In this document: in pieces, positions 40,771-62,254 of the stretch
Position numbering within the stretch: the first letter of the stretch is position 1
How the letters are laid out: the number at the start of each line of letters is the position of its first letter
IMG/VR virus record: IMGVR_UViG_3300042520_003480
Reading direction: 5' to 3' (one strand)
DNA from: an uncultured virus (IMG/VR IMGVR_UViG_3300042520_003480)
Taxonomy: Duplodnaviria > Heunggongvirae > Uroviricota > Caudoviricetes
DNA: 63,329 bases
Position numbers and translations under genes: made by a program
The notes under the pieces: generated by a model
What the model saw: the letters and a program-made list of their open reading frames with translations, nothing else
What the model was told of the DNA's origin: nothing
Databases searched by the model: none

Positions 40771-40775
40771 AAAAA

Positions 40776-44582: not shown

Positions 44583-45788
44583 CTAAAAAATACCATCAAG
44601 TTCAGGCAAGTCTTTTCTCAAATCTCTATACTTTCCTTCTTCTTCAAACGCTTTTTTTATTTTATCTTCGAGGTGAGCAAGATTGGTATAACCAAGACCT
44701 AAGTTTATGTTTCCTGTGACTTCAGGAGCTCCTTTAACTCGCTCTGGTTTTGTTAACAACCCACCATATACACTAAAATCTCCAATAATCTTTTTAGGAC
44801 AACCTTCTAAATTTTCTTGTTTGCTTAATGCTGCGACTCCAAACCTTCCAGTCTTAAAAGTAAACGTAAACGGTTTTAAAAAACTAGGATCGTCCAGTTT
44901 ACTCAAATCTACCTCGAAGGGCATTTCCGTAGTATAATGATCTCCTGATACGACTCCGTTATACTTCATGAAATCTTGAATAAATTCGTTTGTAACGGTT
45001 TTTGCGTTCTTATATTTGTCAAAAGTAATGTACGCTCCTCTGTATGACTCCGCATCCATGTACCCTCCAGAGCCAGGCTTTGGCTTGCCTCTTAAACTTT
45101 CTATTAAATACTTGATTGTAAAACCTGCGTGTTCATAATTGTTTGCATCTTTGTCTTTATATGATGTGTACCCATCTCCTTCTAAATGTGAATGCATAAC
45201 ATGATAATATGGTCCTATCAAAATATAATCTTGAAGACGTTTGCTTTTTTTGACGTTCTTTCTAACTAATCTGTGTTCTGGATTAGTTTTTGACTGACCT
45301 AAAATAAAATAAACACTTTCGGTAAAATCATCTTTATTTTTTTCTGCTAACTGCTCATCTATAAGTGGCTGTTCATACCATTCAAAATTAAACGGAGCAG
45401 CTGTAAGATATTGCTTGAGAAGCTTTTCGTTTGCAGGTTGTGTCTGGTAATCAGTCCTAGCTTTCTTTTGAACCCTCATTGCTAGATCCTTTACTTCCGG
45501 TTTTGCATTAACAACACCCTCATATTTTTTTGCTGTCTCTCTGTTATCAAAAGGTCCAGCTAAAATAGTTGCCATGAACGCCTCCTTCTCTCCGTTATCA
45601 AATTCTAGCAAGTACTTTGAGTATGAACCAGGAACCGTTTTATATCCAACTACTTTTCCGGTCATTCCTTGAAATTTATAGGAACGTTTTGGTTGAGGGT
45701 TGTAGTAGCTTAGCTTCTTCGTAACGACTGCATATTCTCCGTTTTGAAAAGGAGCGCGAGTACCAGGCTGGGTGTAATCTTCAAACAT
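44583..45788 (-). CDS. PELxGIF-tagged protein with an N-terminal SH3/KOW-like domain
   Basis: Ends DLPELDGIF; N-terminus resembles 53023..53340. Confidence 0.85.
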   Translation of the reverse strand: MFEDYTQPGTRAPFQNGEYAVVTKKLSYYNPQPKRSYKFQGMTGKVVGYKTVPGSYSKYLLEFDNGEKEAFMATILAGPFDNRETAKKYEGVVNAKPEVKDLAMRVQKKARTDYQTQPANEKLLKQYLTAAPFNFEWYEQPLIDEQLAEKNKDDFTESVYFILGQSKTNPEHRLVRKNVKKSKRLQDYILIGPYYHVMHSHLEGDGYTSYKDKDANNYEHAGFTIKYLIESLRGKPKPGSGGYMDAESYRGAYITFDKYKNAKTVTNEFIQDFMKYNGVVSGDHYTTEMPFEVDLSKLDDPSFLKPFTFTFKTGRFGVAALSKQENLEGCPKKIIGDFSVYGGLLTKPERVKGAPEVTGNINLGLGYTNLAHLEDKIKKAFEEEGKYRDLRKDLPELDGIF

Positions 45789-45801
45789 ATCTTTAATTAT
45801 T

Positions 45802-46167
45802 TTAAAATATTCCTTCTAGTTCCGGAAGCTTTTTAATAAGCTCGTCAAAGTCTGGCTCTAGTGTTATCCGTACGTCCGTTTTGTCAATGTGTTGTTGAAG
45901 TGATGAATTATTAAATGCTTTTTCAATTGTTGTCATTATAAGTTCTTTAAGTTTATCCACATTTGTGTTAAGATCTTCTTCTTTGATATCATAAACAACG
46001 AGAACAGGTCCCTTGTTGGGTGCTTTAATAATTTTATGGCGAAATTTAAATCGTTCTATAAATTTTTGAATAAGAGTCATGCCAAAAATATTTTCTAGCC
46101 AGACTTGGGAGAACTCAGGAGCTTTTACTATTGATGGATAGCTTATTTGTAATTTAAACGTTTTCAT
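45802..46167 (-). CDS. PELxGIF-tagged hypothetical protein
   Basis: Ends KLPELEGIF. Confidence 0.85.
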   Translation of the reverse strand: MKTFKLQISYPSIVKAPEFSQVWLENIFGMTLIQKFIERFKFRHKIIKAPNKGPVLVVYDIKEEDLNTNVDKLKELIMTTIEKAFNNSSLQQHIDKTDVRITLEPDFDELIKKLPELEGIF

Positions 46168-46737
46168 TTAAAATATTCCTTCTAGTTCTGGCAACTTATT
46201 AACCATTTGTTGCATTTTAATTCTTTCTTCTCTCCACTCAAGATAATCCTCTTTAAACAGCGTTCCTTTGCCAACATTTAGCATAACATGCTTAAGTCTG
46301 TTCTTGAGTTGCTCTTGAAGAAAGTTTGAAATTTCATCAGGATAACATTTTTTGTAAACCGTTTTCATATTATTATAATCAAATCCGGAACCCCCAATAA
46401 ACAATTGTCCTTCATCTTCTCTAAGGCCACATTGCATAAAATCGTTCCATACGTGTTTAATAGCTACTGTATATCCAGCATCAAAATCATCAATTATTTT
46501 ATTCTCACGGAAAAACATTACTATACCTCTATTCCATGCAGTAAGCGAATCTGCACGAACTCTCGCAAAAATATTATATTTTTGCATTTTTTTGTCGCTA
46601 ATGTCGTATATAGAAGCGGTACGCAAAACCTTCATCATATTCAAAATGTCTGATTCATTTTTTACAAAAACAGCTTGAATACCATCGGAGATGTCTTTGA
46701 ATAACTTTTCTTCTTCTTTTAAGAATTTAAATTCCAT
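46168..46737 (-). CDS. PELxGIF-tagged hypothetical protein
   Basis: Ends KLPELEGIF. Confidence 0.85.
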   Translation of the reverse strand: MEFKFLKEEEKLFKDISDGIQAVFVKNESDILNMMKVLRTASIYDISDKKMQKYNIFARVRADSLTAWNRGIVMFFRENKIIDDFDAGYTVAIKHVWNDFMQCGLREDEGQLFIGGSGFDYNNMKTVYKKCYPDEISNFLQEQLKNRLKHVMLNVGKGTLFKEDYLEWREERIKMQQMVNKLPELEGIF

Positions 46738-46738
46738 A

Positions 46739-49252
46739 TTAGAATATCCCTTCCAATTCCGGCAAATTCTTTTTTAACTTTCTGAGCTTTTTGCCTTCTC
46801 TGTCAACATAAAGTTTTCCGAAAATTAAACTATTGATTCTATAGTCATAATCTTCTCCTAATTTTGATCCTAGATATCGATCAAGAAAAAACGCAGCTTC
46901 CTTCAATTCTGTCATGTAAGTCTCGTATATCTTTAACGGCACATCACAAAAAACTATACGCAATGGATCGTGAAGAATTTCCCACTCGTATGACAATTTG
47001 TATGATTTTGTATCCCAATTTTCTTCCATCGCGTTTGCAGCAACTCTGTTAAGTTCTGTTGCTATTATTTTTAATATTTCTGGAGAAGTTTTAGTTCCCT
47101 TTGAGTCCGTAGGTTTGACTTCTATTGCAACATCTACATAATTTTTATCATCTGTAGTCTCTTCAGATTCAAAAATCCCTTTGAGTTCTGGAAGCTCATT
47201 TGAAAGAAAATAATGACGAGTTTTCCAAACAAATTCTGGCATGACTGAAATATACTCTCCTGTTATTTTTTCCCGTCTTTTTAAATCTCTTAGACTATCA
47301 TAGTAGTCGTTATAAATGGTTGTTTCCCAGTGATGTCTCCAAGGGCGTAATTCTTTTTGAACGTTTGGGCTTTCTTTTAAAAAGCTTTCGGTCAGATCAA
47401 CCACTAACTCCATTACAATCTTTCCGTTCTCTTCTTCAACTGTCTCTATAGAGGTTTTTTCGAACGCATTTGCTACTGATTTTAAAATTTTATGGAGATC
47501 TTCTTTTTGGCGTGCATAACCTTTATATCTAGTTACTAGCACTGTTTCTGGTTCCTCAGATTCAAAAATCCCTTCTAGCTCAGGTAATTGCTGTTGTAGA
47601 TCATGAAGTCCTTTGTTGATCAATTTCATTTCACAATTCTTGAAAATTTCAGGCAATCTTTTATTTACTACATCCTCCCACTCCATGTCAGGAGCGACTC
47701 TTCTGGCGTCATGCACAAACATTTGTTCTAAAGAACGTTTTAGCATAGTTACTTTACCTGTTTGTGTGTAAAAGTCAGGATTCATCAATTGTATTATTGC
47801 ATGAACCTCCCTGGGACCTTTATCGTACAATGTGTATCTAAAAGTAGTTCTTTTCTTCTCTTCAAGAAACTTCCATAACAGTTCTTTGTTTGTTTTATCT
47901 AAATTTGTAAATTTAGCAATAATGCTATCAGGTTGATTAGTTTTGCTTTCAAAAATTCCTTGAAGCTCAGGAAGATCCTTTAACATCTTATCATAACGAG
48001 AAATCCACTTCGCTGTATAATCAATAGATTCCCTTATCTCAAAGTCCTTTTTAGTACCGTTCCACTGTGTCTGTATTAATCTCGCTAAAGCGTTTTTCTT
48101 TTCTTCACTTAAAGGTTCAGAGGAATTCTCTCTTTCAATAGAAATTGCAAACTTAAATCCTTTGTTGTAACGAATTATCTTACAACTACTAATAGAATCA
48201 GGCATCAGATATCTAGTCAAGTAACTCATTTTAACCTTAAATGACTTTAAAGCTAACCTGACTCTGTCATGATCAGTAGTTCCGTACGTAGGATCGAATG
48301 TTAAAATGAGTTTATCCTTCTCTTGTTTAGACTCAAAAATTCCCTTAAGCTCAGGAAGCTCTCCTGTCATTCTTCTAATTTTTGCCGACTTCTCATCTAT
48401 GTCTATATCTCCTATAGCAAAAAGGTCTAGATAGTATTCCCCTCCATCTAACCATGCATCTAGATTAGCAACAACTCCATATAGTTTGTTTGCATAAGCT
48501 TCAGCAACTTTAGTTGGTACATCGAGAATAACAAACCCATTTGGTTTCAGCTCATATTCGTAGGTATAAATTCCCTTTTCGTCAACATCCCTGCTCATTC
48601 GGTTTTTTGTATATCTTATGAGCTCATAAGCAATAGCATCTATAATTTCGGGAGTGGTTTCATTACCAAATTTATCTTCAGGGTTTACTTCTACTTTTAT
48701 ATCCACTACATCTTTATCTTCTTCAGATTCAAAAATTCCCTTAAGTTCCGGCAACTCTTTTTCCATCTCTTTATACTTGGTCTTTATACCGATCAATTTT
48801 GGACGAAAGAAGCTTACCCAAGAAAGAGTGTTATATTTCTTAGTGTCTTTTCCGGCAGAAAATTGCCTTCCAATGCTATTGCTGATATCATGCATTGAAG
48901 ATCTGAGTCTGCTACTATATGCTCCTAAAATTTCTATAAAGTCCATTTTTAACAACACTGGTTCTGTTAAATCAAGATCATATCCTATAACCGCTAATGT
49001 ATTTTCTCCTAGGTCTTGAGTCTTTAATTTAAAGTCCCAAGTTTTATTTGTCTGTGCTTTGGCTATTTCTTCTGAATGATTTTCTAAAAAATCTTTTAAT
49101 TGGTTTTTTTGCTCTTCGGAGTCTAACTGATACACTAGCCACATTTCTTTTACATCTTCCGCTCTTTTAACGGACTCAATAGGAATTAAATCATAATCTC
49201 CTAATTGTTTGGAAGATTCGTTAACTCTATAAAATTTTTGAAAACTTATCAT
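46739..49252 (-). CDS. six-module PELxGIF polyprotein
   Basis: Five internal LPELxGIFES junctions and a terminal LPELEGIF. Confidence 0.9.
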   Translation of the reverse strand: MISFQKFYRVNESSKQLGDYDLIPIESVKRAEDVKEMWLVYQLDSEEQKNQLKDFLENHSEEIAKAQTNKTWDFKLKTQDLGENTLAVIGYDLDLTEPVLLKMDFIEILGAYSSRLRSSMHDISNSIGRQFSAGKDTKKYNTLSWVSFFRPKLIGIKTKYKEMEKELPELKGIFESEEDKDVVDIKVEVNPEDKFGNETTPEIIDAIAYELIRYTKNRMSRDVDEKGIYTYEYELKPNGFVILDVPTKVAEAYANKLYGVVANLDAWLDGGEYYLDLFAIGDIDIDEKSAKIRRMTGELPELKGIFESKQEKDKLILTFDPTYGTTDHDRVRLALKSFKVKMSYLTRYLMPDSISSCKIIRYNKGFKFAISIERENSSEPLSEEKKNALARLIQTQWNGTKKDFEIRESIDYTAKWISRYDKMLKDLPELQGIFESKTNQPDSIIAKFTNLDKTNKELLWKFLEEKKRTTFRYTLYDKGPREVHAIIQLMNPDFYTQTGKVTMLKRSLEQMFVHDARRVAPDMEWEDVVNKRLPEIFKNCEMKLINKGLHDLQQQLPELEGIFESEEPETVLVTRYKGYARQKEDLHKILKSVANAFEKTSIETVEEENGKIVMELVVDLTESFLKESPNVQKELRPWRHHWETTIYNDYYDSLRDLKRREKITGEYISVMPEFVWKTRHYFLSNELPELKGIFESEETTDDKNYVDVAIEVKPTDSKGTKTSPEILKIIATELNRVAANAMEENWDTKSYKLSYEWEILHDPLRIVFCDVPLKIYETYMTELKEAAFFLDRYLGSKLGEDYDYRINSLIFGKLYVDREGKKLRKLKKNLPELEGIF

Positions 49253-49293
49253 TATCCCTGTTATTTATTTCAAATTTGATATAAATATATCAA

Positions 49294-51057
49294 GTGAGCG
49301 TATACTACAGAAAAATAGATGAAGCAATTTACTCTGCATATCAGTCGAGAATTCTTCTAAAAGAAGAAGCTCAGGGTATTAAGCGCACAGACAAAATGGA
49401 TCCGGAGTTAGAGGCTCAATTCAAACACCGACTTGATATTTGCAAAGCTCACCTTTATAGGGACTTTCCTTGGTACGGAATTTTACTTTCCAAACTTCAC
49501 ACCGTACCCACATATGACATAGACACGATGGCAGTAGATAACTTCGGAAACATCTATATGAATCCAGAGTTTACTATGAAGATGACCCCTGAAGAGACAA
49601 TGGGAGTCTTAGCTCACGAGTGCATGCATATCATGACGCTGAGCTTCTTCAGGCAACATAGTAGAGACATGAAGTTGTGGAATATTGCTACAGACTTCAT
49701 GATGAATTTAGATCTCGTTGAAATGAAAATGTCTCTCCCTGAAGGAGGATGTATTCCTGAAGAAAGAGGAGGCCGTTGGTTTGCTGTTATTCCTAGAGGA
49801 GACGGACAGCCCGATCTAGAGTACGACATAACTGATTTGTCTGCTGAAGAGCTTTATGACAAATTTGAAAAAGATTTAGATAAAGACAAGGAACAACAAA
49901 AACAATCCGGTAAAAAAGATAAGAAACCATTTAAAGTCGGAGACAGAGTTCAATCAAGAAATACTGGAAAGAACGGAACGATTAAAAAAGTTGGCGGATT
50001 GCCACCCAATCAAACTCTTGAAATTGATTGGGATAATGAAGTCACAGAAGCCATCCAAAAGGGCGTTCCCTCTTCTGAGGTAATGCCACTTCTTTCCGGT
50101 GAAGTTGAAATGGATCCCAATGGAGACCAACAAGAAGGAGAAGATTTTGCTCTTGATAAAGATGCTAAAATAAAAATGAAGCCTCAACAAGGAAAGCCGT
50201 CTCCTTCAAAAGGACAAACTTCTGACGTTAAGATAAAAGGAGATTTACAAAAAGTTTTTGATGACCTTGCAGCAAAACGAGAAAAATTTGACAAACACAT
50301 TACTTCGACTGATGCAAAACCAACTCCTTTAGATACAGGAGACCCAGATCTTATGCCAAACCTTGAAGGTGACGCTCACAATCAATTAAAAGATAAGGTT
50401 CAATCAGCAATGACAGCTATTGGTCAAAGAGGATTATCTGCTGGTGGTCCAAGATCATTCCAAAAGAATTTGCAACGTACAAAAACAAATTGGAGAAATC
50501 TTTTAAGAAACTTTTTGTCAGCAATGGAAAGATCTCGTCCAACTTGGTCAAAACCAAAGAAAAGAGCTTTCGCTGCTGGTTATTATGCTCCTGGTTTAAG
50601 AAAAGAGCGCAAGAGTCTCGATGTCGTTGTTGCCATCGACACTAGCGGTTCGATTAGTGATAGGATTATTGGTCTGTTTGTTTCTGAAATTTTTAATATT
50701 TCCAAAGCGTTTCCTAAGGTCCAAATGAAAATTATTCTTTGGCATACTACTGCTTATGCTGACATCGACATAGATACTAAAAAAGTATCTCCAGCACAAG
50801 TTTTAAATATGCTCAATAACCTACCATACGAAGGTGGTGGAACGGAATTAACTTCTGTTAAGGCTTACTTGGACAAAGAATATCCCAATGAAGCATTTGG
50901 AGGTATTATCGTATTCACTGATGGTTATGTAGAAGAGACACCGAGCTTCCCTAAACTTTCAGACCAAAAGAACAAACTGTTTTTATTAACTCCAGATGGA
51001 GATGATAAGACACTAAAAAAATACGGCACTACAGTAAAAATTGATGTTTACCAATAA
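49294..51057 (+). CDS. DUF2201-like metallopeptidase-VWA protein
   Basis: TMAVD, LAHECMH and WNIATD; VWA MIDAS IDTSGS, GGGT and VFTDGY; GTG start. Confidence 0.88.
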   Translation: MSVYYRKIDEAIYSAYQSRILLKEEAQGIKRTDKMDPELEAQFKHRLDICKAHLYRDFPWYGILLSKLHTVPTYDIDTMAVDNFGNIYMNPEFTMKMTPEETMGVLAHECMHIMTLSFFRQHSRDMKLWNIATDFMMNLDLVEMKMSLPEGGCIPEERGGRWFAVIPRGDGQPDLEYDITDLSAEELYDKFEKDLDKDKEQQKQSGKKDKKPFKVGDRVQSRNTGKNGTIKKVGGLPPNQTLEIDWDNEVTEAIQKGVPSSEVMPLLSGEVEMDPNGDQQEGEDFALDKDAKIKMKPQQGKPSPSKGQTSDVKIKGDLQKVFDDLAAKREKFDKHITSTDAKPTPLDTGDPDLMPNLEGDAHNQLKDKVQSAMTAIGQRGLSAGGPRSFQKNLQRTKTNWRNLLRNFLSAMERSRPTWSKPKKRAFAAGYYAPGLRKERKSLDVVVAIDTSGSISDRIIGLFVSEIFNISKAFPKVQMKIILWHTTAYADIDIDTKKVSPAQVLNMLNNLPYEGGGTELTSVKAYLDKEYPNEAFGGIIVFTDGYVEETPSFPKLSDQKNKLFLLTPDGDDKTLKKYGTTVKIDVYQ

Positions 51058-51065
51058 ATAACACT

Positions 51066-52538
51066 ATGGAATTAGAAAGCATTACAGAATCTCCGTTCTT
51101 GAACGCATATAAAAGATTTGTGCTCAAAGAAGCAAAAAAAGAAGCCATTGCTGCAGACATGGAAGCCAAGGCCGCTCCAATGGTTAACAAAATTAACCAA
51201 CCTGAAGCTCCTCAAGCTGAAGACGAAGACGATGAGATGGAATGGGATAGCGGAGCAATTGAGACAGAAGATACCTCTACTCTCAGCAAATACGATTATC
51301 AGCGTTTGCATGATTTTATCTCGCTATCATACAGAACAAAAAGAGCTCTGTTAATTTACGGAGATCCTGGCATTGGCAAGAGTCAAATGGTTCAGCAATT
51401 TACTAGACAAATGGCTGCAAGTAAAGGTAAAGCATATCTTGATTGGGACGAGGCCAATAACAATCAACAATTGGATGCCATCAAGAATCCAGGTAAATAC
51501 TTTTTGTATATAGACGTTAGAGCTGACTCTCTTGATCCAACCGATCTTGCCGGCATTCCAAAACTTCAAAGCAATGAAGAGTTTCTTGAGACCCAAATTC
51601 CTAAATGGCTCTACATAATGGCTCAACCAGAGTCTGATGGTATCTTATTCTTAGATGAATTGAATAACGCAGAGCCACAAATGATTAAAGCTTTGTATAA
51701 AGTTGTGGATAAAAAAGTTGGCAACGTAAAGTTATCAGAAAATTTTGGTATTCTTGCTGCTGGCAATCTTGGAGCTGAATTTGGCGGCAATCCACTTCCT
51801 TGGGCTCTTACAAACAGATTTGAAAGTGGTGTACTTGTTGCTGATGCTGAATCTTGGCTCTCGTACGCTGAAAAAGCTGGAGTTGATAAAAGGATTATTG
51901 CTTTCGTTAAGTCTGAACCAGAAGTCAACTTCAATCCAAAACCACCAGGGGGATTTGGTGGCGGTGACACACATATCACATGGGCTTCCCCAAGAGCAAT
52001 GATGATGCTTTCTGATAAAATTACTCAACTCAGAAAAGCTTATGCAGAGGCAAAAGCCGAAGGTCATCCTATTCAAACCCCTATAATTGCTGCAGTCAAA
52101 CAAAGTGCTGTTGGACTTTGCGGAGAACAATGGGCAAGAAGATTTGACGCATTCATGAGACACTTTAAATCATTTGATTTTGGTGGAATTGTTAAGAGTG
52201 CCGAAAGTGGAGAATTGCAAGCAGAAAAGAGAGACAAACTTCATGCTCTTCTCATGTTTGTCATGGGCAAGCTTAAGCCAGCTCTTAAGCGCTCAGAAGA
52301 ACAAAAAACCATCTCCGAAGATGATAAAGGAGTATTCATCGGTCTTGCTAAAATCACAAACGACTTCAAGCCAGAATGGAAAGTTAATTTGTTTTCCCTT
52401 TTAAAGAAAGACCTTACCGTTGAACAATTACAAATCTTGATGACCTTCTTATTAAGAGGAGATTATGACGCAAAGACTAAAAAGGTCTTCATAGAAGAAG
52501 CTCTTCCTAAAATTAAATCAATAACATCCTACAAATAA
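51066..52538 (+). CDS. MoxR-like AAA+ ATPase
   Basis: GDPGIGKS, DLAGIP, LFLDELN, AAGN, ALTNRF and SPR. Confidence 0.9.
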   Translation: MELESITESPFLNAYKRFVLKEAKKEAIAADMEAKAAPMVNKINQPEAPQAEDEDDEMEWDSGAIETEDTSTLSKYDYQRLHDFISLSYRTKRALLIYGDPGIGKSQMVQQFTRQMAASKGKAYLDWDEANNNQQLDAIKNPGKYFLYIDVRADSLDPTDLAGIPKLQSNEEFLETQIPKWLYIMAQPESDGILFLDELNNAEPQMIKALYKVVDKKVGNVKLSENFGILAAGNLGAEFGGNPLPWALTNRFESGVLVADAESWLSYAEKAGVDKRIIAFVKSEPEVNFNPKPPGGFGGGDTHITWASPRAMMMLSDKITQLRKAYAEAKAEGHPIQTPIIAAVKQSAVGLCGEQWARRFDAFMRHFKSFDFGGIVKSAESGELQAEKRDKLHALLMFVMGKLKPALKRSEEQKTISEDDKGVFIGLAKITNDFKPEWKVNLFSLLKKDLTVEQLQILMTFLLRGDYDAKTKKVFIEEALPKIKSITSYK

Positions 52539-52545
52539 TAAAATT

Positions 52546-53022
52546 ATGAAAGAATATCGACACGCCCGCAACATTGCAGAACAGATTTATTTTTGTGGCA
52601 AGAGAAGGCTGACAACAGAACAAAAAGAGATGCTGAGAAATTCTCCTTTCTCCAATCTTTTGGAGATGGTCGAGAAGCCAAATTTTATCAAACTTGCTGA
52701 AACAGTTGAAAAGCAATTGACTGACGCTAAGCCAGAAAAGCCTAAATCTTCTCCTGATTATTCTCCTAGCAAATCAAGATACCTTACTGGATATCATGCA
52801 GGGGAAATCAAGGAGCTAATTAGTCACATTGAGGATCACTTCAAGCTCGGAGTTCCATACAACTACAACGATCTTCCTGCTGATAAGCTCAAAGAATTCA
52901 TCAATCAATATGCTGAACACAAAATTTTTGATGATCACACAAAAGACTTAGTTCTCAGAGTTAAAGAGCAAGAACACCCAGAAGAGATCATGGGAACTTT
53001 AAGATTGTACGCTAGACATTAA
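52546..53022 (+). CDS. hypothetical protein downstream of the VWA/AAA pair
   Basis: ORF on the same strand, with TAAATA-like AT-rich sequence upstream. Confidence 0.7.
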   Translation: MKEYRHARNIAEQIYFCGKRRLTTEQKEMLRNSPFSNLLEMVEKPNFIKLAETVEKQLTDAKPEKPKSSPDYSPSKSRYLTGYHAGEIKELISHIEDHFKLGVPYNYNDLPADKLKEFINQYAEHKIFDDHTKDLVLRVKEQEHPEEIMGTLRLYARH

Positions 53023-53340
53023 TTAAAAAATTCCTTTTAGTTCGGGAAGTTCTTCCATCATTTTTCTCATCTTTATTTCTTCTTCTGTAGGTCGTCTTAA
53101 AAAGTGAGAATGAAGTCCAAATATGCTTCCATTCGAAAGCTTTACTGCATATTTAGAATAAGCTCCAGCTGCATACTTATAACCTACTATTTCACCAATT
53201 TGATCAATGGCCTGCCTTGATTTAGCAGAGTGATACGAGTCCCACTTTCCTACATCTTCTATTTTTACTTCGTCTCCTATTTGAAACTTGGCTTTAGGTC
53301 CTGGTTGGCCGTAGCCCTTTAATCCAAATAATTCATTCAT
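53023..53340 (-). CDS. PELxGIF-tagged SH3/KOW-like protein
   Basis: KFQIGDEVKI...GEIVGY; ends ELPELKGIF. Confidence 0.85.
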   Translation of the reverse strand: MNELFGLKGYGQPGPKAKFQIGDEVKIEDVGKWDSYHSAKSRQAIDQIGEIVGYKYAAGAYSKYAVKLSNGSIFGLHSHFLRRPTEEEIKMRKMMEELPELKGIF

Positions 53341-53768
53341 ACGTCAAATATTCCTTTTAATTCAGGATGTTCGTCAGTCATATCATCATACGGATCTGTG
53401 ACTATTTTAAATTTTTCTTTCTTAGGTATATCAGAAAGAGAAAAAATTTTAGGAGTCTTTACAACCTCAATAATTCTTCTGTATACTTTGTGCGGATCTT
53501 CCCTCACATGCAAACTTTTTGGAATAATCACGTACACGAGATGCTCATAGTCAACTCTGCGTATTATTTTTACGCCTTCTCTTTTTAATCCTGACTTGCT
53601 AATTGCTTTCAACATTAGCTCTGTGTCATCAGGCATGATTATATAAGCACTATAATAGTTTTCAAGGTCTCTACCAAAAGCTATACCTTGTTCATCAAAA
53701 ATAGAAGGAACTTGACCAACAATCTTGTTGTATGCTTGCTCCAGCAATATTTGATCCTTAGTTTTCAC
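53337..53768 (-). CDS. leader- and PELxGIF-tagged hypothetical protein
   Basis: MKTKDQILLEQAY...EHPELKGIFDV. Confidence 0.85.
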   Translation of the reverse strand: MKTKDQILLEQAYNKIVGQVPSIFDEQGIAFGRDLENYYSAYIIMPDDTELMLKAISKSGLKREGVKIIRRVDYEHLVYVIIPKSLHVREDPHKVYRRIIEVVKTPKIFSLSDIPKKEKFKIVTDPYDDMTDEHPELKGIFDV

Positions 53769-53782
53769 TAAGTTATTTATAT

Positions 53783-54079
53783 TTAAACTGGAATTAATGC
53801 TGGACGAGCAAAATCTTCTTGTGGAGTATAGAAGACATAATAATCGTGACCGGCTTCACTCGGATACCCAAAATTAGCGGCATCCTCTCTTTTAGCTACA
53901 TAAGCTGTCTTAAAGGATTTCCCTTCTTCCATTTTTCTTTTTAAATTAGAACAATCGTTCATATCATCTAAAAACATAATGTCTTCGGTTGGGCCAGAAT
54001 AGTAACTAAAGTCTTGTTCTGGAGATTCATTGATTGCTTTGTATGCTTCTTCTAGCAATTGTTGGTCTTTGGACTTCAT
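53783..54079 (-). CDS. leader-bearing hypothetical protein without the C-terminal tag
   Basis: MKSKDQQLLEEAYKAINES. Confidence 0.8.
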   Translation of the reverse strand: MKSKDQQLLEEAYKAINESPEQDFSYYSGPTEDIMFLDDMNDCSNLKRKMEEGKSFKTAYVAKREDAANFGYPSEAGHDYYVFYTPQEDFARPALIPV

Positions 54080-54088
54080 GTATTTTAT

Positions 54089-54640
54089 TTAATCAAAAAA
54101 GATGCCATTTAACTCAGGGAGCTCTGTTGAGAATCTCTTTTCCATTTCGTACTGCTTTTTTTGTTCTTCTGTAGGAAAATCAATTAGAGATTCGTCAATG
54201 GCATATACTTCTCCGTTTGGTCTTTTAATTCCTTTAAGCGTTTCAATAACATCGCTCGAGTTCCCTTTAAACATTTCGCTACTTTTTATTTGCTGCCTGC
54301 CAACCACTATGCCACACTTTCCTGCAACTTTATTCCATTGTTTTACATACTCAGGTTTTAGTCTAGAAAAATTCAACCAATGACACTCTTCAGATGTCAT
54401 TACATAAGCAACATCCCCAATCTCTATTCGTACTCCGCAGCACTTATTAAATGGTTTATTTGAACCACATATACAAGGGCCTTTGCGTTGTTCTGAATCT
54501 TTTTCTAGTTTTTCCCATCCAGGATCTGGAGCAACTGGCTTATTCTCTTCTCCTTCCTCGAGGTGAATAAGATGATTATTCTTGCAATAAACCATTCCCA
54601 TATACAATTCCTCAAGTAACTTTTGATCTGTTGATTTCAC
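54089..54640 (-). CDS. leader- and PELxGIF-tagged protein with a SEC-C motif
   Basis: MKSTDQKLLEELY; PCICGSNKPFNKCCG; ends ELPELNGIFFD. Confidence 0.85.
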   Translation of the reverse strand: MKSTDQKLLEELYMGMVYCKNNHLIHLEEGEENKPVAPDPGWEKLEKDSEQRKGPCICGSNKPFNKCCGVRIEIGDVAYVMTSEECHWLNFSRLKPEYVKQWNKVAGKCGIVVGRQQIKSSEMFKGNSSDVIETLKGIKRPNGEVYAIDESLIDFPTEEQKKQYEMEKRFSTELPELNGIFFD

Positions 54641-54657
54641 TCATTATACTTAATATT

Positions 54658-54948
54658 TCAAACAGCTGTCATTACTTTTTTAGAATTAACTATTTTCTTC
54701 ATCCATTCTGTATTCTGATAACTAAGATTGACCCCAGATGATTTGGATACCGGATGGCTATCAACGATGTCACTCAGAGCTTGGCTCAATTCATTTAATT
54801 GTTCTAATGGTTTTTTTCTGTGATCAATCTCTTGATCAATAATGGCTGACCCAGCTTTGTATTCAGCTAGCAAAACATCGACTATGTGATTGAGTTCTTG
54901 TATCTTAACTTTAGTATCGTCTACTAGATCATGTATTGTGTTAAACAT
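54658..54948 (-). CDS. hypothetical helical protein
   Basis: ORF with a TTGACT promoter upstream. Confidence 0.65.
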   Translation of the reverse strand: MFNTIHDLVDDTKVKIQELNHIVDVLLAEYKAGSAIIDQEIDHRKKPLEQLNELSQALSDIVDSHPVSKSSGVNLSYQNTEWMKKIVNSKKVMTAV

Positions 54949-54990
54949 AAATTAATGCTCTATGTATTTTAATTTAAGTCAACAAATTAT

Positions 54991-55322
54991 TGGCTGAGGC
55001 CGCATTGGCTACCGGGTCTTTATCCCGTTGGACGCTGGCTGTTCATTTAACTCTGCCTACTCGAGACCAAATAGTATTCAGCCGGGGTACCTCGGCATTA
55101 TTGAAGCCCACAGGTGATCGTTTCTGTCGCTTGCTTTCTCAGCCGCCGACTGTATGGAAGAAGGGGGCCAAAGGTTCCGAACCCTCTCGAAAGGCCTGTC
55201 CTTCACGCATTCGAGTGCTCCGTAGTGTACTACCACTCTCCATAAAAATTATCAAATAACAAGTTCCGATTTTGTGTTGTGAATTTTTATTCACCGTTGG
55301 CTCATCGGGAACCAACTCTCAT
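54991..55322. ncRNA. candidate structured non-coding RNA(s), three domains
   Basis: GC-rich island with closing helices GGCTGAG/CTCAGCC and TATGGA/TCCATA plus a pseudoknot-like third domain. Confidence 0.6.
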
Positions 55323-55364
55323 AAACTTTATTTATTTTCGTTTAAAAATTACAAAAGTCAACTG

Positions 55365-55760
55365 CTAAAGATCGCTTGATAAATCTTCGTGAAAATAAGC
55401 GTTGGTTACGGGAGTGTCATCGTGTCTCCATTTCATCCATGCTTCAGCAATAGATTTTGGATCATTCCACCACGCTCTTAGAGGTATTGATTTCCACTCA
55501 CTATCCCAAACCCATAGGCGATTCTTTCCTGGAGGATACAGGTAGGCACACGTAGAGTGTCCCCATTTTTCTGTATTAATTGAAAGAACTCTTGCTTGGA
55601 TATCTTCTTCTCTCAAGCCTTGCGCTACAGCAATCGCTTCAGGCAAACATGCTTTTCTATAGGAGCCGACCCAACTAGGAACTCCGGTGGGTGGTTTACT
55701 TGTGCAGCCAATTAAAAAGAGCGCTAAAAGGCATCTACAAAATGTGTTAATAAATTTCAT
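55365..55760 (-). CDS. lipoprotein with a transglutaminase/papain-like Cys-His-Asp arrangement
   Basis: Lipobox LIGC; ACLPEA, WGHSTC and VWDS. Confidence 0.6.
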   Translation of the reverse strand: MKFINTFCRCLLALFLIGCTSKPPTGVPSWVGSYRKACLPEAIAVAQGLREEDIQARVLSINTEKWGHSTCAYLYPPGKNRLWVWDSEWKSIPLRAWWNDPKSIAEAWMKWRHDDTPVTNAYFHEDLSSDL

Positions 55761-55826
55761 TGTTCTTATTTATATCAAGAATCATAAATATTTTTTCAAA
55801 GTATCTAACAAAAGATAAATACTTTT

Positions 55827-56366
55827 GTGAACAAAGACCAAAGACTCCTAGAAGAAGCTTATAGAAGTATCTATGAGTCAAAATTTTATACAGATCCAAG
55901 GTTGACTAAACGAGAGCAAGAGTTTGTCAACAAAGTCGTAGACGAAATAGTGGACAACAATTATACGATAAAATACACCGATGCTCCAACTGCTCGAGTT
56001 GATGAGCAAGAAAGAAACACTGCTTTAGCTACCATTAAAAAGATAATTGAATACATGTTTAAAGATTTTCCAGGCATACATATTCCGCTTATTCGAGCTG
56101 CTCACCAAACACTAGCAGCTTGGCATTCTACATTCACAGAAATGATAAAAGCAAAACTTGTTCCAGAAGACAAGAAGGATAGAGAAGAAATCAAAGACAC
56201 GCTCAAAAATCATATAGCAACTTATATAGCAAAGTTTTTTGAAGACGCTGGCAAACCAGGAGGTTTTCTAATTAAAAACACTGCTGAATACCTCAAACAC
56301 AGAGAAGAGGAAATTAAATATGGTCCGATGCGCGATGAGCTGCCTGAACTAAAAGGAATATTCTAA
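55827..56366 (+). CDS. leader- and PELxGIF-tagged hypothetical protein
   Basis: MNKDQRLLEEAYRSIYES...ELPELKGIF. Confidence 0.85.
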   Translation: MNKDQRLLEEAYRSIYESKFYTDPRLTKREQEFVNKVVDEIVDNNYTIKYTDAPTARVDEQERNTALATIKKIIEYMFKDFPGIHIPLIRAAHQTLAAWHSTFTEMIKAKLVPEDKKDREEIKDTLKNHIATYIAKFFEDAGKPGGFLIKNTAEYLKHREEEIKYGPMRDELPELKGIF

Positions 56367-56845
56367 TGAAGGCATTTGAACAATTAGTACTAGAAGCAAT
56401 GGAAGAAGAGTTCACAATAATTCTTTGGTGTTCATGGTTTCATTTGTTGAATGACGAGTACAAAAAAGAAATCCTATCTATGTTTAAATGGTTTGGTCGC
56501 AAGCATCCTCAAGGGATAGCTCACCAATTCCATCTAAGAGATTGGCAGAATCCAATGTATAAACAAGTACAAGTTGATTACGAGGAAGATGAAAACGGAC
56601 CAAAGATAACTTTAACAAACATACGTTGTAACAGATATCAAGCAGGAAGCTTATTAGATGAAATACGTCTCAAAGCGTTTGGTGAGTATCTTCATCGTAA
56701 CAAAATAATGAAATACTTAAAAGACACAGTAAAAATACCAATTGAAGGAACTCGGCTTTTTAGAGATCCAACAATAGACGGAAAGGCTATTGGTAAGTAT
56801 GACGATATGGTAAAAGACCTTCCAGAGCTAGAAGGAGTATTTTAA
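56366..56845 (+). CDS. PELxGVF-tagged protein, paralog 1
   Basis: MKAFEQLVLEA...DLPELEGVF; TAATG coupling. Confidence 0.85.
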   Translation: MKAFEQLVLEAMEEEFTIILWCSWFHLLNDEYKKEILSMFKWFGRKHPQGIAHQFHLRDWQNPMYKQVQVDYEEDENGPKITLTNIRCNRYQAGSLLDEIRLKAFGEYLHRNKIMKYLKDTVKIPIEGTRLFRDPTIDGKAIGKYDDMVKDLPELEGVF

Positions 56846-57321
56846 TGAAAGCGTTTGAACAATTAGTACTGGAAGCAATGGAAGAAGAGTTCACAATAAT
56901 TCTTTGGTGTTCATGGTTTCATTTGTTAAATGAGAAATACAAAAAGGAAATCTTAGATATGTTTAGATGGCATAGTAGGAGGCATCCAGATGGAATAGCT
57001 TTTCAGTTTCATCTAAGAGATTGGCAGAATCCGATGTATAAACAAGTGCAGGTTGATTATGAAGAAGACGAAAACGGACCAAAAATGACTTTAACAAACA
57101 TACACTGCACAAGATATCAAGCTGGAAGCTTATTAGATGAAATACGTCTTAATACGTTTAAACTCAAAGGGAGAGACAACACACTAAAGTATCTGAGAGA
57201 TACAGTAAAAATACCAATTGAAGGAACTCGGTATTTTAGAGATCCAACAATAGACGGAAAAGTTTTCGGTAAGTATGACGATATGGTAAAAGACCTTCCA
57301 GAGTTAGAAGGAGTATTTTAA
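56845..57321 (+). CDS. PELxGVF-tagged protein, paralog 2
   Basis: Near-identical tandem copy of the preceding gene. Confidence 0.85.
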   Translation: MKAFEQLVLEAMEEEFTIILWCSWFHLLNEKYKKEILDMFRWHSRRHPDGIAFQFHLRDWQNPMYKQVQVDYEEDENGPKMTLTNIHCTRYQAGSLLDEIRLNTFKLKGRDNTLKYLRDTVKIPIEGTRYFRDPTIDGKVFGKYDDMVKDLPELEGVF

Positions 57322-57683
57322 TGAAAACAAATGACCAACAACTGTTAGAAGAAGCGTATAATGCTGTCGTAACAGAAGGAGTTTTGCCTTCTAAGGCTTT
57401 TAGATCAAAACCTTTACATCAAAAGAAAGTGCTTTATCGTTTATTTGCGAAACCAGACAAGAAGATGGGAGGCAAGTATTTCTGGGGAGAAAAATTATCT
57501 TGGGCTGGAGAATTTGAGAGTGTCGAAGAGGCGTTAGTTTACTTAAAAAACTTGTACGTGTATAGCGAAGATATGGAGTACGTAATAAAAGAAGTTATAA
57601 TTGAGTACTCAGAGAAGACAGTTGAACAAAGTGGACTCCGGCAAATGAGAGATGATCTTCCGGAACTTAAAGGTATTTTTTAA
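57321..57683 (+). CDS. leader- and PELxGIF-tagged hypothetical protein
   Basis: MKTNDQQLLEEAY...DLPELKGIF. Confidence 0.85.
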   Translation: MKTNDQQLLEEAYNAVVTEGVLPSKAFRSKPLHQKKVLYRLFAKPDKKMGGKYFWGEKLSWAGEFESVEEALVYLKNLYVYSEDMEYVIKEVIIEYSEKTVEQSGLRQMRDDLPELKGIF

Positions 57684-58276
57684 TGAAGACAAAGGACCAA
57701 CAACTCCTAGAACTTTTATATGAACAAGTAGTTGAAGGTTCTAAAGATTTGCTTCCAGAAGAAAAAAAGTTTTCAGAGGCAGCTGCTAAGATTATTTCCA
57801 AACAAATCTTCACAGCAGTAGAAGGAAGAATTCACAACAATGGAAAGTTAGACTTTGAATACCTAGGGGATCTAATTGATACTCATTTTGACAAGGCTTT
57901 AGATATTTTTAGTCCTGATTACGATTATTTTGTAAGAAGAGTTGTTAGAGTACATTTAGCACACGATTTGTTTAATCGACTCGTTTTTGTCAAAACGATA
58001 GACGGCAAAGTCAATGTATGCTTCCGACCTGCAAAATTTGTTACAACAGATCAATATAATGAAGACAGATTGTTTATTCCTATTGAAAATAAGCAAGAAG
58101 TGGAAGAACAGTTAAGAAAAACAATAGAAGATGTTATTCTGGAGCGTTATGATTACTTCTTAAAGTATCCTCGTTCATCAACGTCAAATGAAACAAAGTG
58201 GGTTGCGTGGAGAAAAGAAAAGCTCAAATATAAAGCTCTCACTAACGAACATCCCGAACTCGAAGGAATATTTTAA
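57683..58276 (+). CDS. leader- and PELxGIF-tagged hypothetical protein
   Basis: MKTKDQQLLELLY...EHPELEGIF. Confidence 0.85.
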   Translation: MKTKDQQLLELLYEQVVEGSKDLLPEEKKFSEAAAKIISKQIFTAVEGRIHNNGKLDFEYLGDLIDTHFDKALDIFSPDYDYFVRRVVRVHLAHDLFNRLVFVKTIDGKVNVCFRPAKFVTTDQYNEDRLFIPIENKQEVEEQLRKTIEDVILERYDYFLKYPRSSTSNETKWVAWRKEKLKYKALTNEHPELEGIF

Positions 58277-58692
58277 AAAACACCCTCTAACTCAGGTAGT
58301 TCTTTTTTCAATTTACTAAACTTTTCAAACTCCTCGATTGTTTTAGAATCAGCTGTAGAATTAAAATCTATCTGTCCCATCCAATATACGTCTTCTTTAT
58401 CTTTTGGTGAAAGTCCAAATGTTGTATATCCTTTCATCTTAGTTGCACGAGCTCTGGTGTTACCATCCTTAACAGAAACAAAAAAATCTCCTTCGTCCTC
58501 AATATCCCAAACCCAACCCACAGAAAGATCTAAATCCTTTAGAAAGGTATTAGCAAACCTTTTTTCAAATTCTTGATCATCGCAATAATCTCTTATTTGC
58601 TGGAGTTCTTCTTCTGTTGCTCTACGCAAAATCTTTGCTGAACTTACTTGATTATAAGCTTCTTCTAGCAACTGTTGGTCTTTAGTCTTCAC
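58273..58692 (-). CDS. leader- and PELxGVF-tagged hypothetical protein
   Basis: MKTKDQQLLEEAY...ELPELEGVF; convergent with the previous gene. Confidence 0.85.
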   Translation of the reverse strand: MKTKDQQLLEEAYNQVSSAKILRRATEEELQQIRDYCDDQEFEKRFANTFLKDLDLSVGWVWDIEDEGDFFVSVKDGNTRARATKMKGYTTFGLSPKDKEDVYWMGQIDFNSTADSKTIEEFEKFSKLKKELPELEGVF

Positions 58693-58719
58693 ACTAGATT
58701 ATTTATTCAACTTATTTTA

Positions 58720-59910: not shown

Positions 59911-59916
59911 AATCTA

Positions 59917-60300: not shown

Positions 60301-60342
60301 GTTGTTTATATTCCAATGAGGACTTAGACAGGTCAACAAATA

Positions 60343-62118: not shown

Positions 62119-62123
62119 TGTTT

Positions 62124-62196: not shown

Positions 62197-62254
62197 TACT
62201 GCTAAAGACTATCCTATGATCTGACAGATAGGTCAACTAGAATAAGTTTATTTA

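What the first reader, a model, noticed from the sequence alone, without database searches (positions are those of the whole stretch)
44583..58692. Thirteen mostly unrelated proteins share a C-terminal PELxGIF tag and flank an AAA+/VWA pair: candidate tag-directed cargo system
Seen: 13 genes on both strands end in (L/H)PELxG(I/V)F. Their lower coordinates are 44583, 45802, 46168, 46739, 53023, 53337, 54089, 55827, 56366, 56845, 57321, 57683 and 58273. The tag is followed by a stop, or by two extra residues in two cases, and is usually preceded by a short helix such as YDDMVKD or MRKMMEE. The protein bodies are mostly unrelated. Synonymous codons differ between copies, so the peptide rather than the DNA is conserved. 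No other ORF in the window carries the tag, and the cluster is centred on a MoxR-like ATPase and a VWA-peptidase. Known: MoxR/VWA pairs act as chaperones with client adaptors. Inference: the tag is a docking or sorting signal for a variable set of cargo or effector proteins, recognised by the AAA+/VWA machine, a virion structure or one host target. I do not recognise this motif from any described system.
Basis: partly seen in the sequence, partly recalled or inferred. Interest (0 to 1): 0.93.

Follow-up and report, generated by a model that had tools for sequence, protein, structure and literature searches.

The report
Shared tail peptide on phage proteins
A T4-like phage gives many unrelated small proteins the same eight-residue tail, sometimes strung together as polyproteins, which looks like an undescribed address label for sorting a changeable set of cargo proteins.

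Summary
The window holds 18 copies of (L/H)PELxG(I/V)F, not 13. Thirteen end ORFs, and five lie inside the 837-aa ORF 46739-49252, which is a six-unit polyprotein. Shuffled sequence gives a mean of 0.015 copies.

The tail occurs in a small clade of uncultured T4-superfamily phages, on at least 29 unrelated families with no Pfam match. One family can be a separate gene in one phage and a polyprotein unit in another. Internal tails are followed by Glu in 27 of 27 and 48 of 51 cases.

The tail varies by genome, not by protein family. An ortholog in another phage carries a different tail, shared with its neighbours. In two folded families the tail is flexible.

Many tagged proteins also carry an N-terminal leader, MK(S/T)xDQxLLEEAY, that resembles T4's capsid-targeting sequence. 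The gene arrays sit behind late-promoter-like ATAAATA boxes.

Best reading: a trans-read sorting tail for late-made cargo, probably for the virion. The link to the MoxR/VWA-peptidase pair rests on adjacency in this window only.

The parts
44583..45788 (-). Tagged ORF, 401 aa, ends LPELDGIF. N-terminal SH3/KOW-like barrel, then a repeat-rich body.
   Evidence: AF2 mean pLDDT 74, last residues below 50. Only the first ~70 aa match known folds, PetP/eS4 barrels.
45802..46167 (-). Tagged ORF, 121 aa, ends LPELEGIF.
   Evidence: Orthologs in L010, L057, L058 and L074.
46168..46737 (-). Tagged ORF, 189 aa, ends LPELEGIF. The same family is a polyprotein unit in other phages.
   Evidence: Clusters with L062 unit 6 of 8, L088 unit 2 of 2 and L108 unit 1 of 3.
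46739..49252 (-). Polyprotein, 837 aa, six units each ending in the tail. Units lie at 48731-49252, 48335-48730, 47951-48334, 47564-47950, 47171-47563 and 46742-47170. The five internal tails are each followed by ES and a short polar stretch.
   Evidence: Units 2 and 6 are related (35%); the rest are unrelated. Units 2 and 6 are homologous to stand-alone genes L010:8069-8473 and L074:1110-1514.
49262..49287 (.). Back-to-back ATAAATA boxes in the 41-bp gap between the polyprotein gene (- strand) and the peptidase-VWA gene (+ strand).
49294..51057 (+). Zinc peptidase (HExxH) fused by a long polar linker to a VWA domain with a full MIDAS.
   Evidence: Pfam DUF2201_N 5e-26, DUF2201, VWA. H108, E109, H112, D449, S451, S453, T517 and D543 are invariant in 30 homologs. 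The VWA part resembles integrin I domains, E 4e-6.
51066..52538 (+). MoxR-like AAA+ ATPase with Walker A GDPGIGKS and Walker B LFLDE.
   Evidence: Pfam AAA_5, AAA_3 and bpMoxR, weak; sequence. 67% identical homolog next to the peptidase-VWA in G004.
52546..53022 (+). Third gene of the ATPase/VWA operon, 158 aa, no known family.
   Evidence: Homolog in the same position in G004, 39% identity.
53023..53340 (-). Tagged ORF, 105 aa, ends LPELKGIF. Small barrel domain related to the start of 44583.
53337..53768 (-). Tagged ORF, 143 aa, with the N-leader. Ends HPELKGIF plus DV. ATAAATA box 5 nt upstream.
53783..54079 (-). ORF with the N-leader only, 98 aa, no tail. Conserved in the distant complete genome G010.
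54089..54640 (-). Tagged ORF, 183 aa, with the N-leader. Ends LPELNGIF plus FD.
55365..55760 (-). Lipoprotein-like ORF, 131 aa, untagged. 77% identical copies sit beside tail arrays in L084 and G004/M0159. ATAAATA box upstream.
55827..56366 (+). Tagged ORF, 179 aa, with the N-leader. First gene of a five-gene array. ATAAATA box 5 nt upstream.
56366..56845 (+). Tagged ORF, 159 aa, ends LPELEGVF. Starts MKAFEQLVLEA.
56845..57321 (+). Tagged ORF, 158 aa, an 82% paralog of the previous ORF.
57321..57683 (+). Tagged ORF, 120 aa, N-leader plus tail.
57683..58276 (+). Tagged ORF, 197 aa, N-leader plus HPELEGIF. This family was folded.
   Evidence: AF2 pLDDT 84, pTM 0.81. The leader helix 4-14 and the last ~10 residues have low confidence. 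No PDB fold match.
58273..58692 (-). Tagged ORF, 139 aa, N-leader plus LPELEGVF. ATAAATA box 7 nt upstream.

Best explanation
The cluster is a fast-changing late-gene locus of a T4-superfamily phage. It encodes 18 protein modules (13 ORFs) from mostly unrelated families. All share a flexible C-terminal peptide of about 16 residues ending ...(L/H)PELxG(I/V)F, and many also share an N-terminal leader, MK(S/T)xDQxLLEEAY.

The tail is a short linear docking signal read in trans by one common partner that co-evolves with it. That is why every module in a genome carries that genome's version of the tail.

Modules are made as separate genes or as polyproteins in which each tail is followed by Glu. 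I infer that the polyproteins are cut at these junctions. The likely protease is either the Glu-directed T4-type prohead protease, because the junction IFE fits its (L/I)xE rule as I recall it, or the neighbouring VWA-fused zinc peptidase.

The most likely purpose is to bring a variable set of cargo proteins into the assembling virion for delivery to the next host. This is the logic of T4's internal proteins, with a new C-terminal label.

Shown: the motif, its spread, the polyprotein/stand-alone exchange, the Glu rule, concerted variation, tail flexibility and the late-type boxes. Inferred: the common reader, the cleavage and the virion destination.
For: (1) 18 tails against 0.015 expected. 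Selection acts on the peptide, since codons differ.

(2) At least 29 families among 94 units from about 20 phage contigs share nothing else. None of the 59 relatives scanned and none of the 13 window ORFs has a Pfam family above cut-off.

(3) The same family occurs as a stand-alone gene in one phage and as an internal polyprotein unit in another.

(4) Internal tails are followed by Glu in 27 of 27 cases. In the library-wide profile search it is 48 of 51, and the other 3 have Glu one residue later. Terminal tails end at the stop, or 1-3 residues before it.

(5) Concerted change by genome. The residue before LPEL is K in 23 of 23 tails in M1931, R in 6 of 6 in L058 and R in 4 of 4 in L088. Tail identity is 0.60 for the same contig and different family, 0.55 for the same family and different contig, and 0.50 for neither. 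In G005 the ortholog of a tailed 509-aa protein (E 7e-50) ends instead in ...DMSALDGF, a tail type shared by 7 other G005 ORFs.

(6) AF2 leaves the tail and the N-leader at low confidence, off the folded body, in two families.

(7) Late-type control. 16 of 33 ATAAATA boxes lie within 40 nt upstream of a start, against about 1 expected. These include all four tail arrays, the peptidase-VWA gene and the ATPase gene. In the complete relative G010, 35 genes carry the box against 1.7 expected. The named ones are tail sheath, sheath stabiliser, head maturation protease, tail fibre, a virion protein and endonuclease VII. Of 31 random box-less genes, eight fall in the PHROG DNA, RNA and nucleotide metabolism class (DNA polymerase, SSB, primase, both RNR subunits, SbcD, an exonuclease and an HNH endonuclease).

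(8) T4 precedent. Diverse ejected internal proteins share only a short capsid-targeting sequence (PMC3012670, PMC9026906, passages read). T4 IPIII and IPII start MKTYQEFIAE, compared with MKTKDQQLLEE and MKAFEQLVLEA here. T4's ip genes sit beside lysozyme and tRNA genes, as this cluster does. T4-family prohead proteases cut after Glu (PMC5694885, passages), and relatives encode one.
Against: No head gene, prohead protease or virion protein list is available for any tail-bearing phage. The window and its relatives are fragments.

The tailed proteins are not basic, as the internal proteins of T4 and related phages are described (PMC9026906 passages); the median pI of the units is 6.6.

The N-leader often lacks a hydrophobic residue three places before its Glu (QLE, KLE, ALE). 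It is therefore not a clean site for the T4-type protease rule as I recall it.

The N-leader is far more widespread than the tail: 79 proteins in 74 IMG/VR loci. Two complete genomes have only two leader genes each and no tail, so leader and tail need not serve the same route.

The Glu after internal tails could instead mimic a free carboxylate, without any cleavage.

The ATAAATA box lies only 5-10 nt from start codons. That is unusual for a promoter, and its role has not been measured.
Confidence: 0.45

Rival explanations
1. The MoxR ATPase and the VWA-fused zinc peptidase are the reader and processor of the tail. The VWA MIDAS metal binds the invariant Glu or the terminal carboxylate. The peptidase trims extra residues and cuts polyproteins at the junction. 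The ATPase remodels or loads the clients. This can coexist with a virion destination.
For: The pair sits in the middle of the arrays. It shares a 41-bp divergent control region and the same box with the polyprotein gene.

The peptidase HExxH and the MIDAS residues are invariant in 30 homologs. The VWA part resembles integrin I domains, which bind an acidic ligand residue (established knowledge, recalled).

Iyer et al. 2021 described this pair in T4-like jumbo phages and proposed virion assembly with peptidolytic processing (PMC7824862, passage read).

G004 has both the pair and the tails. In the complete genome G011, leader-like genes flank the peptidase-VWA genes.
Against: In G004/M0159 the pair lies at 4.5-8.2 kb and the tails at 122-126 kb of a contig of at least 157 kb. 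No pair lies within 35 kb of the ~30 tails of M1931.

80 other loci with this peptidase-VWA family (1.1 Mb) hold no tail. G011 has the peptidase but no tail.

The pair therefore works without this tail in most phages.
Confidence: 0.25
2. The tail docks the proteins onto one host protein: a hub, a protease ring or a replication factor. The locus is then a set of host-directed effectors that share a host-binding handle.
For: Short hydrophobic-acidic tails ending in Phe with a free carboxylate are classic hub-docking tips (recalled, for example the tip of bacterial SSB). The G005 variant tail is strongly acidic and ends in Phe. The bodies are diverse orphans, as expected of effectors.
Against: Late-type boxes argue against early host takeover.

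The tail differs between related phages. A conserved host hub would hold it constant, unless the hosts differ.

A scan of 185,579 species genomes found no credible host protein with the tail. It returned 98 loci, none convincing.
Confidence: 0.12
3. The tail is a degradation or turnover signal, read by a host or phage AAA+ protease.
For: C-terminal non-polar tails often act as degrons (established knowledge, recalled). The phage carries its own tmRNA. A relative encodes a Lon-like protease.
Against: A degron kept on every unit of a polyprotein and on at least 29 families would destroy a large part of late protein output. The conserved upstream helix and the Pro-Glu-Leu core are more elaborate than known degrons.
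Confidence: 0.08
4. The motif has no function as a peptide. It is either a structural element of one hidden homologous fold or a DNA cassette that promotes gene shuffling.
For: Gene arrays join tail and next start codon tightly (GIF-stop-ATG), and modules do move between genes and polyproteins. In another phage (L167), about 26 small paralogs share an ...FLExL end as part of one fold.
Against: Synonymous codons vary freely. The bodies fall into at least 29 BLAST-unrelated families. Two folded families have different architectures with the tail off the body.
Confidence: 0.05

Closest known systems
T4 capsid-targeting sequence (CTS) on internal proteins IPI, IPII, IPIII and Alt
   Same: It is a T4-superfamily phage. 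A hypervariable set of unrelated small proteins shares only a short terminal peptide. The locus lies beside lysozyme and tRNA genes. The genes look late. The N-leader here (MKT..., Glu at position 10) resembles MKTYQEFIAE (PMC3012670 and PMC9026906 passages).
   Different: The finding's label is C-terminal, longer (about 16 aa) and different in sequence. It is repeated inside polyproteins and varies in concert between genomes. The proteins are not basic. Packaging and cleavage are untested.
MoxR AAA+ / vWA-metallopeptidase pair of T4-like ('group 2.2') jumbo phages (Iyer et al. 2021, PMC7824862)
   Same: The same two-gene architecture is present here. That paper proposed virion assembly with peptidolytic processing of structural proteins.
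   Different: No client or recognition signal was described for that pair. Here a candidate client set lies beside it, but the adjacency is not conserved.
Propeptide-bearing ejection and inner-body proteins of phiKZ/SPN3US giant phages
   Same: Many head-internal proteins are processed after Glu by a T4-related prohead protease. The protease's own C-terminal region is thought to target it into the prohead (PMC5694885 passages).
   Different: Those propeptides are long, N-terminal and not one shared octapeptide. No polyproteins made of unrelated modules are described there.
Encapsulin cargo-loading peptides and microcompartment encapsulation peptides (recalled, not tested)
   Same: A short terminal peptide, helix plus a few fixed residues, joined by a flexible linker to unrelated cargo, docks it to the inside of a protein shell. 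Encapsulin shells have the phage-capsid fold.
   Different: The sequences differ. No dedicated shell gene lies in the cluster. Here the shell would be the phage's own capsid.
Polyubiquitin-type precursors (recalled)
   Same: Tandem units each end in the same C-terminal motif, and some genes carry one or two extra capping residues after it.
   Different: The units here are unrelated folds. There is no Gly-Gly end, and no conjugation enzymes were seen.

Membership tests
T4 CTS / internal-protein system | The phage belongs to the T4 superfamily and has an S77 prohead protease. | tested here: inconclusive
   The window has gp32, DnaB-like helicase, UvsX, PolB, gp46/47-like, UvsW-like, primase and segE. 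DNA polymerase is 31-33% identical to pelagi- and cyanomyophages. No protease was found in the window or in G001-G004. It is present in 4 of 5 leader-bearing relatives.
T4 CTS / internal-protein system | A short N-terminal propeptide is shared by otherwise unrelated proteins. | tested here: met
   The N-leader is on 11 window ORFs under a relaxed pattern. It is on 79 distinct proteins in 74 IMG/VR loci, and in 76 of them it starts at residue 4-5.
T4 CTS / internal-protein system | The signal is N-terminal. | tested here: not met
   The PELxGIF label is the last 8 residues, or lies 1-3 residues before the end.
T4 CTS / internal-protein system | The signal is removed by the prohead protease after Glu, and the proteins are packaged in the head. 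| not testable with these tools
   Only sequence hints exist: the junction IFE and the invariant Glu after internal tails.
MoxR-vWA(-peptidase) chaperone pair | A MoxR-type AAA+ gene lies next to a VWA gene with an intact MIDAS, here fused to an HExxH peptidase. | tested here: met
MoxR-vWA(-peptidase) chaperone pair | The tailed proteins are its clients. | not testable with these tools
   There is adjacency and a shared box in this window only. Adjacency is absent in G004 and M1931. No tail occurs in 80 other loci with the pair's peptidase-VWA.
Encapsulin / microcompartment cargo peptides | A dedicated shell gene lies beside the cargo genes. | tested here: not met
   No encapsulin, BMC or capsid family was found among 88 window ORFs.
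Sortase LPXTG / PEP-CTERM sorting signals | The motif is followed by a membrane-spanning stretch and a basic end. | tested here: not met
   The tail ends the protein. A true PEP-CTERM protein lies nearby at 60343-61680 for contrast.
Polyubiquitin-like precursor | The tandem units are homologous to one another. | tested here: not met
   Only units 2 and 6 of the six are related. The units of other polyproteins fall into different clusters.

The most novel reading that the evidence does not exclude
The tail is a phage-encoded address code. Its Glu or free carboxylate is read by the MIDAS site of the VWA-peptidase. With the MoxR ATPase, the peptidase cuts polyprotein precursors at tail-Glu junctions and loads a swappable set of effectors into virions. 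This would be an ATP-driven, tag-directed cargo processing and loading machine. Its code drifts between phage lineages (the PELxGIF type against the DxDLEDF type), so each phage packs only its own cargo.
Probability: 0.15. Interest if true: 0.92.

Novelty: new variant of a known kind. Interest (0 to 1): 0.8.

Why it matters
If the tail is a sorting label, it defines a second, C-terminal route for directing arbitrary proteins to one destination in T4-like phages. It would sit beside the classic N-terminal capsid-targeting sequence.

It would mark dozens of orphan families in uncultured phages as one functional class, probably delivered cargo such as anti-defence proteins.

It would give the widespread but unexplained phage MoxR/VWA-peptidase pair a testable client set.

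It would also show phage polyproteins built from unrelated modules, which is rare in tailed phages.

A portable 16-residue label with lineage-specific versions could serve as a tool for loading chosen proteins into phage particles.

Tried and rejected
**Complex prediction.** I ran the peptidase-VWA (30-row alignment A4) with a 45-aa tail segment (alignment A2). It gave no verdict, score 0.00. It counts neither for nor against binding.

The rest of the 125-kb source contig, and the contigs of the close peptidase-VWA homologs P0032-P0040, could therefore not be examined.

**Searches that found no relatives or failed.**
- Related loci of the ATPase in IMG/VR: none.
- tblastn of a tailed protein (57683) and of the PGDYG protein against 50,697 phage records: no hit, and one unrelated Aerococcus phage hit. 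No cultured relative carries the tail.

**Head genes.** No Gp23 or S77 protease was found in G001-G004. No Gp23 or DUF2201 was found in G005-G009. All of these are fragments.

**Chance matches dropped.**
- In the IMG/VR pattern scans, most single matches were chance: FPELxGIF in short frames.
- L076, L090, L142 and L144 were dropped before the counts.
- In the scan of species genomes, 98 loci gave no credible tail. Four hits in one Verrucomicrobiia MAG are a DNA repeat that reads FPEFxGIF, not ORF ends.

**Exact TATAAATA.** It is not enriched as such: 8 matches against 5.9 expected. The signal appears only for ATAAATA placed just upstream of starts.

**Weak similarity.** A barrel-like stretch in the peptidase linker resembles the start of 53023 with E 0.057 over 17 aa. 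I rejected this as insufficient.

**Protein Atlas and fold searches.** They gave no function for 44583 or the 57683 family.

**RNA search.** Rfam and folding of the GC-rich 416-nt gap at 54949-55364 found no family, z = -0.95.

**Sortase or PEP-CTERM reading.** Rejected, because the tail ends the protein.

Full report
**What the window is.** The 63-kb window belongs to a T4-superfamily phage. It encodes gp32-like SSB, a DnaB-like helicase, UvsX, a family-B DNA polymerase, Rad50/Mre11-like proteins, a UvsW-like helicase, primase, a SegE-type endonuclease, RNA ligase and a lysozyme. It also carries ten clustered tRNAs and a tmRNA at 39.1-41.2 kb, plus one further tRNA at 62.1 kb. Its DNA polymerase is only 31-33% identical to the nearest cultured phages, which are pelagi- and cyanomyophages. 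The window's own assembly is not held. Search tables list the window's own proteins on a 125,329-base contig.

- A six-frame search for PE[LIVM].G[IV]F gives 18 matches, all within 44586-58296. Shuffles give a mean of 0.015.
- Five more lie inside ORF 46739-49252. This 837-aa protein is made of six units (174, 132, 128, 129, 131 and 143 aa), each ending in the tail. Every internal tail is followed by ES and a short polar stretch.
- Codons for the conserved residues differ from copy to copy.
- Conservation reaches about 16 residues back: [KR][YF]xx[LM]xx[KDE][LH]PELxG[IV]F.
- With tails removed, only three pairs of bodies are related by BLASTP. None of the 13 has a Pfam family above cut-off.

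**A second shared motif.** Many of the same proteins begin M(K)(S/T)xDQxLLEEAY. Under a relaxed pattern, 8 of 11 leader-bearing ORFs also carry the tail, and 5 tailed ORFs lack the leader (Fisher p = 1.6e-6).

The leader is much more widespread than the tail. A pattern scan of IMG/VR found 74 loci and 79 distinct proteins. In 76 of them the motif begins at residue 4-5. Some contigs carry many leader genes, for example 11 in G005. Two complete genomes, G010 and G011, have two each.

**Where else the tail occurs.**
- IMG/VR pattern scans found true tails on three contigs only: G002, G003 and G004.
It found many more, from freshwater and marine samples.
- One 39.7-kb contig (merged as M1931) holds about 30 tails, including polyproteins of 1224 aa with 8 tails, 661 aa and 570 aa.
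- A profile of 98 tails, searched against 1.84 billion representative proteins, found 57 proteins at E <= 0.001. Nearly all have the tail at the very end or repeated up to six times.
- A word-indexed search found 27 proteins, none with a Pfam domain or an informative name.
- No cultured phage matched a tailed protein.
- No credible tail was found in 185,579 species genomes.

**Unrelated bodies, movable modules.** 94 units cluster into 29 families. Five window ORFs were left out of this count, because identical copies in locus L099 were skipped. None of 59 tailed relatives has a Pfam family above cut-off.

Several families occur both as stand-alone genes and as internal polyprotein units. Window 46168-46737 matches unit 6 of 8 of the 1224-aa polyprotein. 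Window polyprotein units 2 and 6 match 135-aa stand-alone genes in G004 and L074.

**The Glu rule.**
- Internal tails are followed by Glu in 27 of 27 cases in the fetched loci.
- In the library-wide hits the figure is 48 of 51, and the other three have Glu one residue later. The two sets overlap in part.
- Terminal tails stop directly in 66 and 35 cases, or carry 1-3 extra residues in 6 and 11 cases. The extras are D, S, E, L, DV, FD, NS and SDL.

**The tail changes by genome, not by family.**
- The residue before LPEL is K in 23 of 23 M1931 tails, R in 6 of 6 L058 tails and R in 4 of 4 L088 tails. It is mixed in the window.
- LPEI replaces LPEL in three different families of G004 and L074.
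- At eight variable tail positions, identity is 0.60 for the same contig and different family, 0.55 for the same family and different contig, and 0.50 for neither.
- In G005, a 505-aa ortholog (E 7e-50) of a PELxGIF-tailed 509-aa protein ends in ...EKEFDMSALDGF. Seven other G005 ORFs, from about five families in all, end in the same acidic, Phe-terminated type (...KDFDIDLEDF...DISALEGF).

Concerted change across unrelated proteins points to one shared reader in each phage-host system.

**Structure.** The 197-aa family (10 sequences) folds with pLDDT 84 and pTM 0.81. The leader helix (residues 4-14), the linker after it and the last ~10 residues have low confidence. Foldseek finds no PDB match.

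The 401-aa family folds less well, with pLDDT 74. A long helix precedes the tail, and the last residues fall below 50. Only its first ~70 residues match known small barrels. In both models the tail is a free appendage.

**Timing signal.** ATAAATA lies 5-10 nt upstream of many start codons. 16 of 33 occurrences in the window are within 40 nt upstream of a start, against about 1 expected. They precede all four tail arrays, the peptidase-VWA gene, the ATPase gene and the lipoprotein gene.

In G002 the box precedes baseplate and tail-fibre genes but not the clamp loader or RNR genes.

In the complete genome G010, 35 genes have the box against 1.7 expected.
- Of the 29 boxed genes of at least 100 aa, those with a named PHROG are tail sheath, sheath stabiliser, head maturation protease, tail fibre, a virion protein and endonuclease VII.
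- Of 31 random box-less genes, eight fall in the PHROG DNA, RNA and nucleotide metabolism class: DNA polymerase, SSB, primase, both RNR subunits, SbcD, an exonuclease and an HNH endonuclease. One is a small tail protein.

This matches the T4 late promoter (TATAAATA, recalled). The box is oddly close to the start codons.

**The ATPase/VWA pair.** The peptidase-VWA protein has invariant HExxH and MIDAS residues. Its VWA domain resembles integrin I domains. The ATPase has Walker A and B motifs. Iyer et al. 2021 described this pair in T4-like jumbo phages and proposed virion assembly with peptidolytic processing (PMC7824862, passage read). A 2026 study found a phage MoxR ATPase needed against one defence system (PMC13716836, passage read).

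In this window the pair is central and shares a 41-bp divergent control region with the polyprotein gene. The wider picture is against a fixed link:
- In G004 the pair is far from the tails.
- M1931 has none within 35 kb.
- 80 other loci with this family have no tail.
- G011 has the peptidase but no tail.

**Comparison with T4.** T4's internal proteins are diverse ejected anti-defence proteins that share only a 10-19-residue N-terminal capsid-targeting sequence, which the prohead protease removes. Alt is processed at both ends (PMC3012670 and PMC9026906, passages read). T4-family proteases cut after Glu (PMC5694885, passages read).

IPIII and IPII begin MKTYQEFIAE, and IPI begins MKTFKEF. The leaders here begin MKTKDQQLLEE, MKAFEQLVLEA and MKTFK. 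T4's ip genes lie beside the lysozyme and tRNA genes. Here the order is lysozyme, tRNAs, RNA ligase, then the cluster.

**Reading.** I take the tail to be a trans-read sorting peptide on late-made cargo modules, most likely for the virion. Polyproteins are probably cut at the tail-Glu junction. The prohead machinery and the VWA-peptidase/MoxR pair are the two candidates, and they are not exclusive.

**Not in print, as far as searched.** Full-text searches for the tail and leader strings returned only two unrelated papers.

Noticed in passing
window 53337-63107 (N-termini of 53337, 53783, 54089, 55827, 57321, 57683, 58273, 62628); IMG/VR loci L247-L320: The N-terminal leader MK(S/T)xDQxLLEEAY heads 79 distinct, mostly unrelated proteins in 74 IMG/VR loci. 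It nearly always starts at residue 4-5. It is expanded in some phages (11 genes in G005) and present as two genes in each of two complete 217-226-kb genomes.
   Followed up: partly
window 49262-49287, 51054-51060, 53774-53780, 55767-55773, 55815-55821, 58700-58706 and others: An ATAAATA box lies 5-10 nt upstream of start codons (16 of 33 occurrences). It marks virion genes in the relatives G002 and G010. This looks like a T4-type late promoter placed so close to the start that the transcripts would be almost leaderless.
   Followed up: partly
G005 (loci L321-L324), about 40.4-52.6 kb of that contig: A related phage uses a different acidic, Phe-terminated tail (...KDFDIDLEDF, ...DISALEGF, ...DMSALDGF) on 8 ORFs. 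One is an ortholog of a PELxGIF-tailed protein. Most also carry the N-leader.
   Followed up: partly
L167 (IMG/VR contig of 155 kb), whole 21-kb locus: About 26 small paralogous ORFs (70-110 aa, barrel-like starts) ending in ...FLExL flank that phage's ATPase and peptidase-VWA genes. This is a paralog family, not unrelated bodies.
   Followed up: no
window 55365-55760 (-): A lipoprotein-like 131-aa ORF is 77% identical in L084 and G004/M0159 and always lies beside tail arrays. It is far better conserved than its tagged neighbours.
   Followed up: no
window 54949-55364: A GC-rich 416-nt gap without a convincing ORF. It is absent from the matching place in L084, has no Rfam family, and its folding energy is not unusual (z = -0.95).
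   Followed up: partly
window 60343-61680 (-): The phage encodes a protein with PATR repeats and a weak PEP-CTERM-like end (Pfam hit below cut-off), with a homolog in M0159. It hints at a host with an exosortase system.
   Followed up: no
window 38754-39125 (+) and 62255-62623 (-); G005 7368-8819: Ig-like or repeat proteins preceded by the ATAAATA box share yet another C-terminal ending (…RLRHLGYV, …RLRLLGYI, …RLRLLGHF).
   Followed up: no
window 39131-41229: Ten tRNA genes and a phage-borne tmRNA (tag ending ...EDYALAA) lie between the lysozyme and RNA ligase genes.
   Followed up: no
window 9190-22737: A long run of glycosyltransferase, methyltransferase, aminotransferase and acetyltransferase genes lies between the replication genes.
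   Followed up: no
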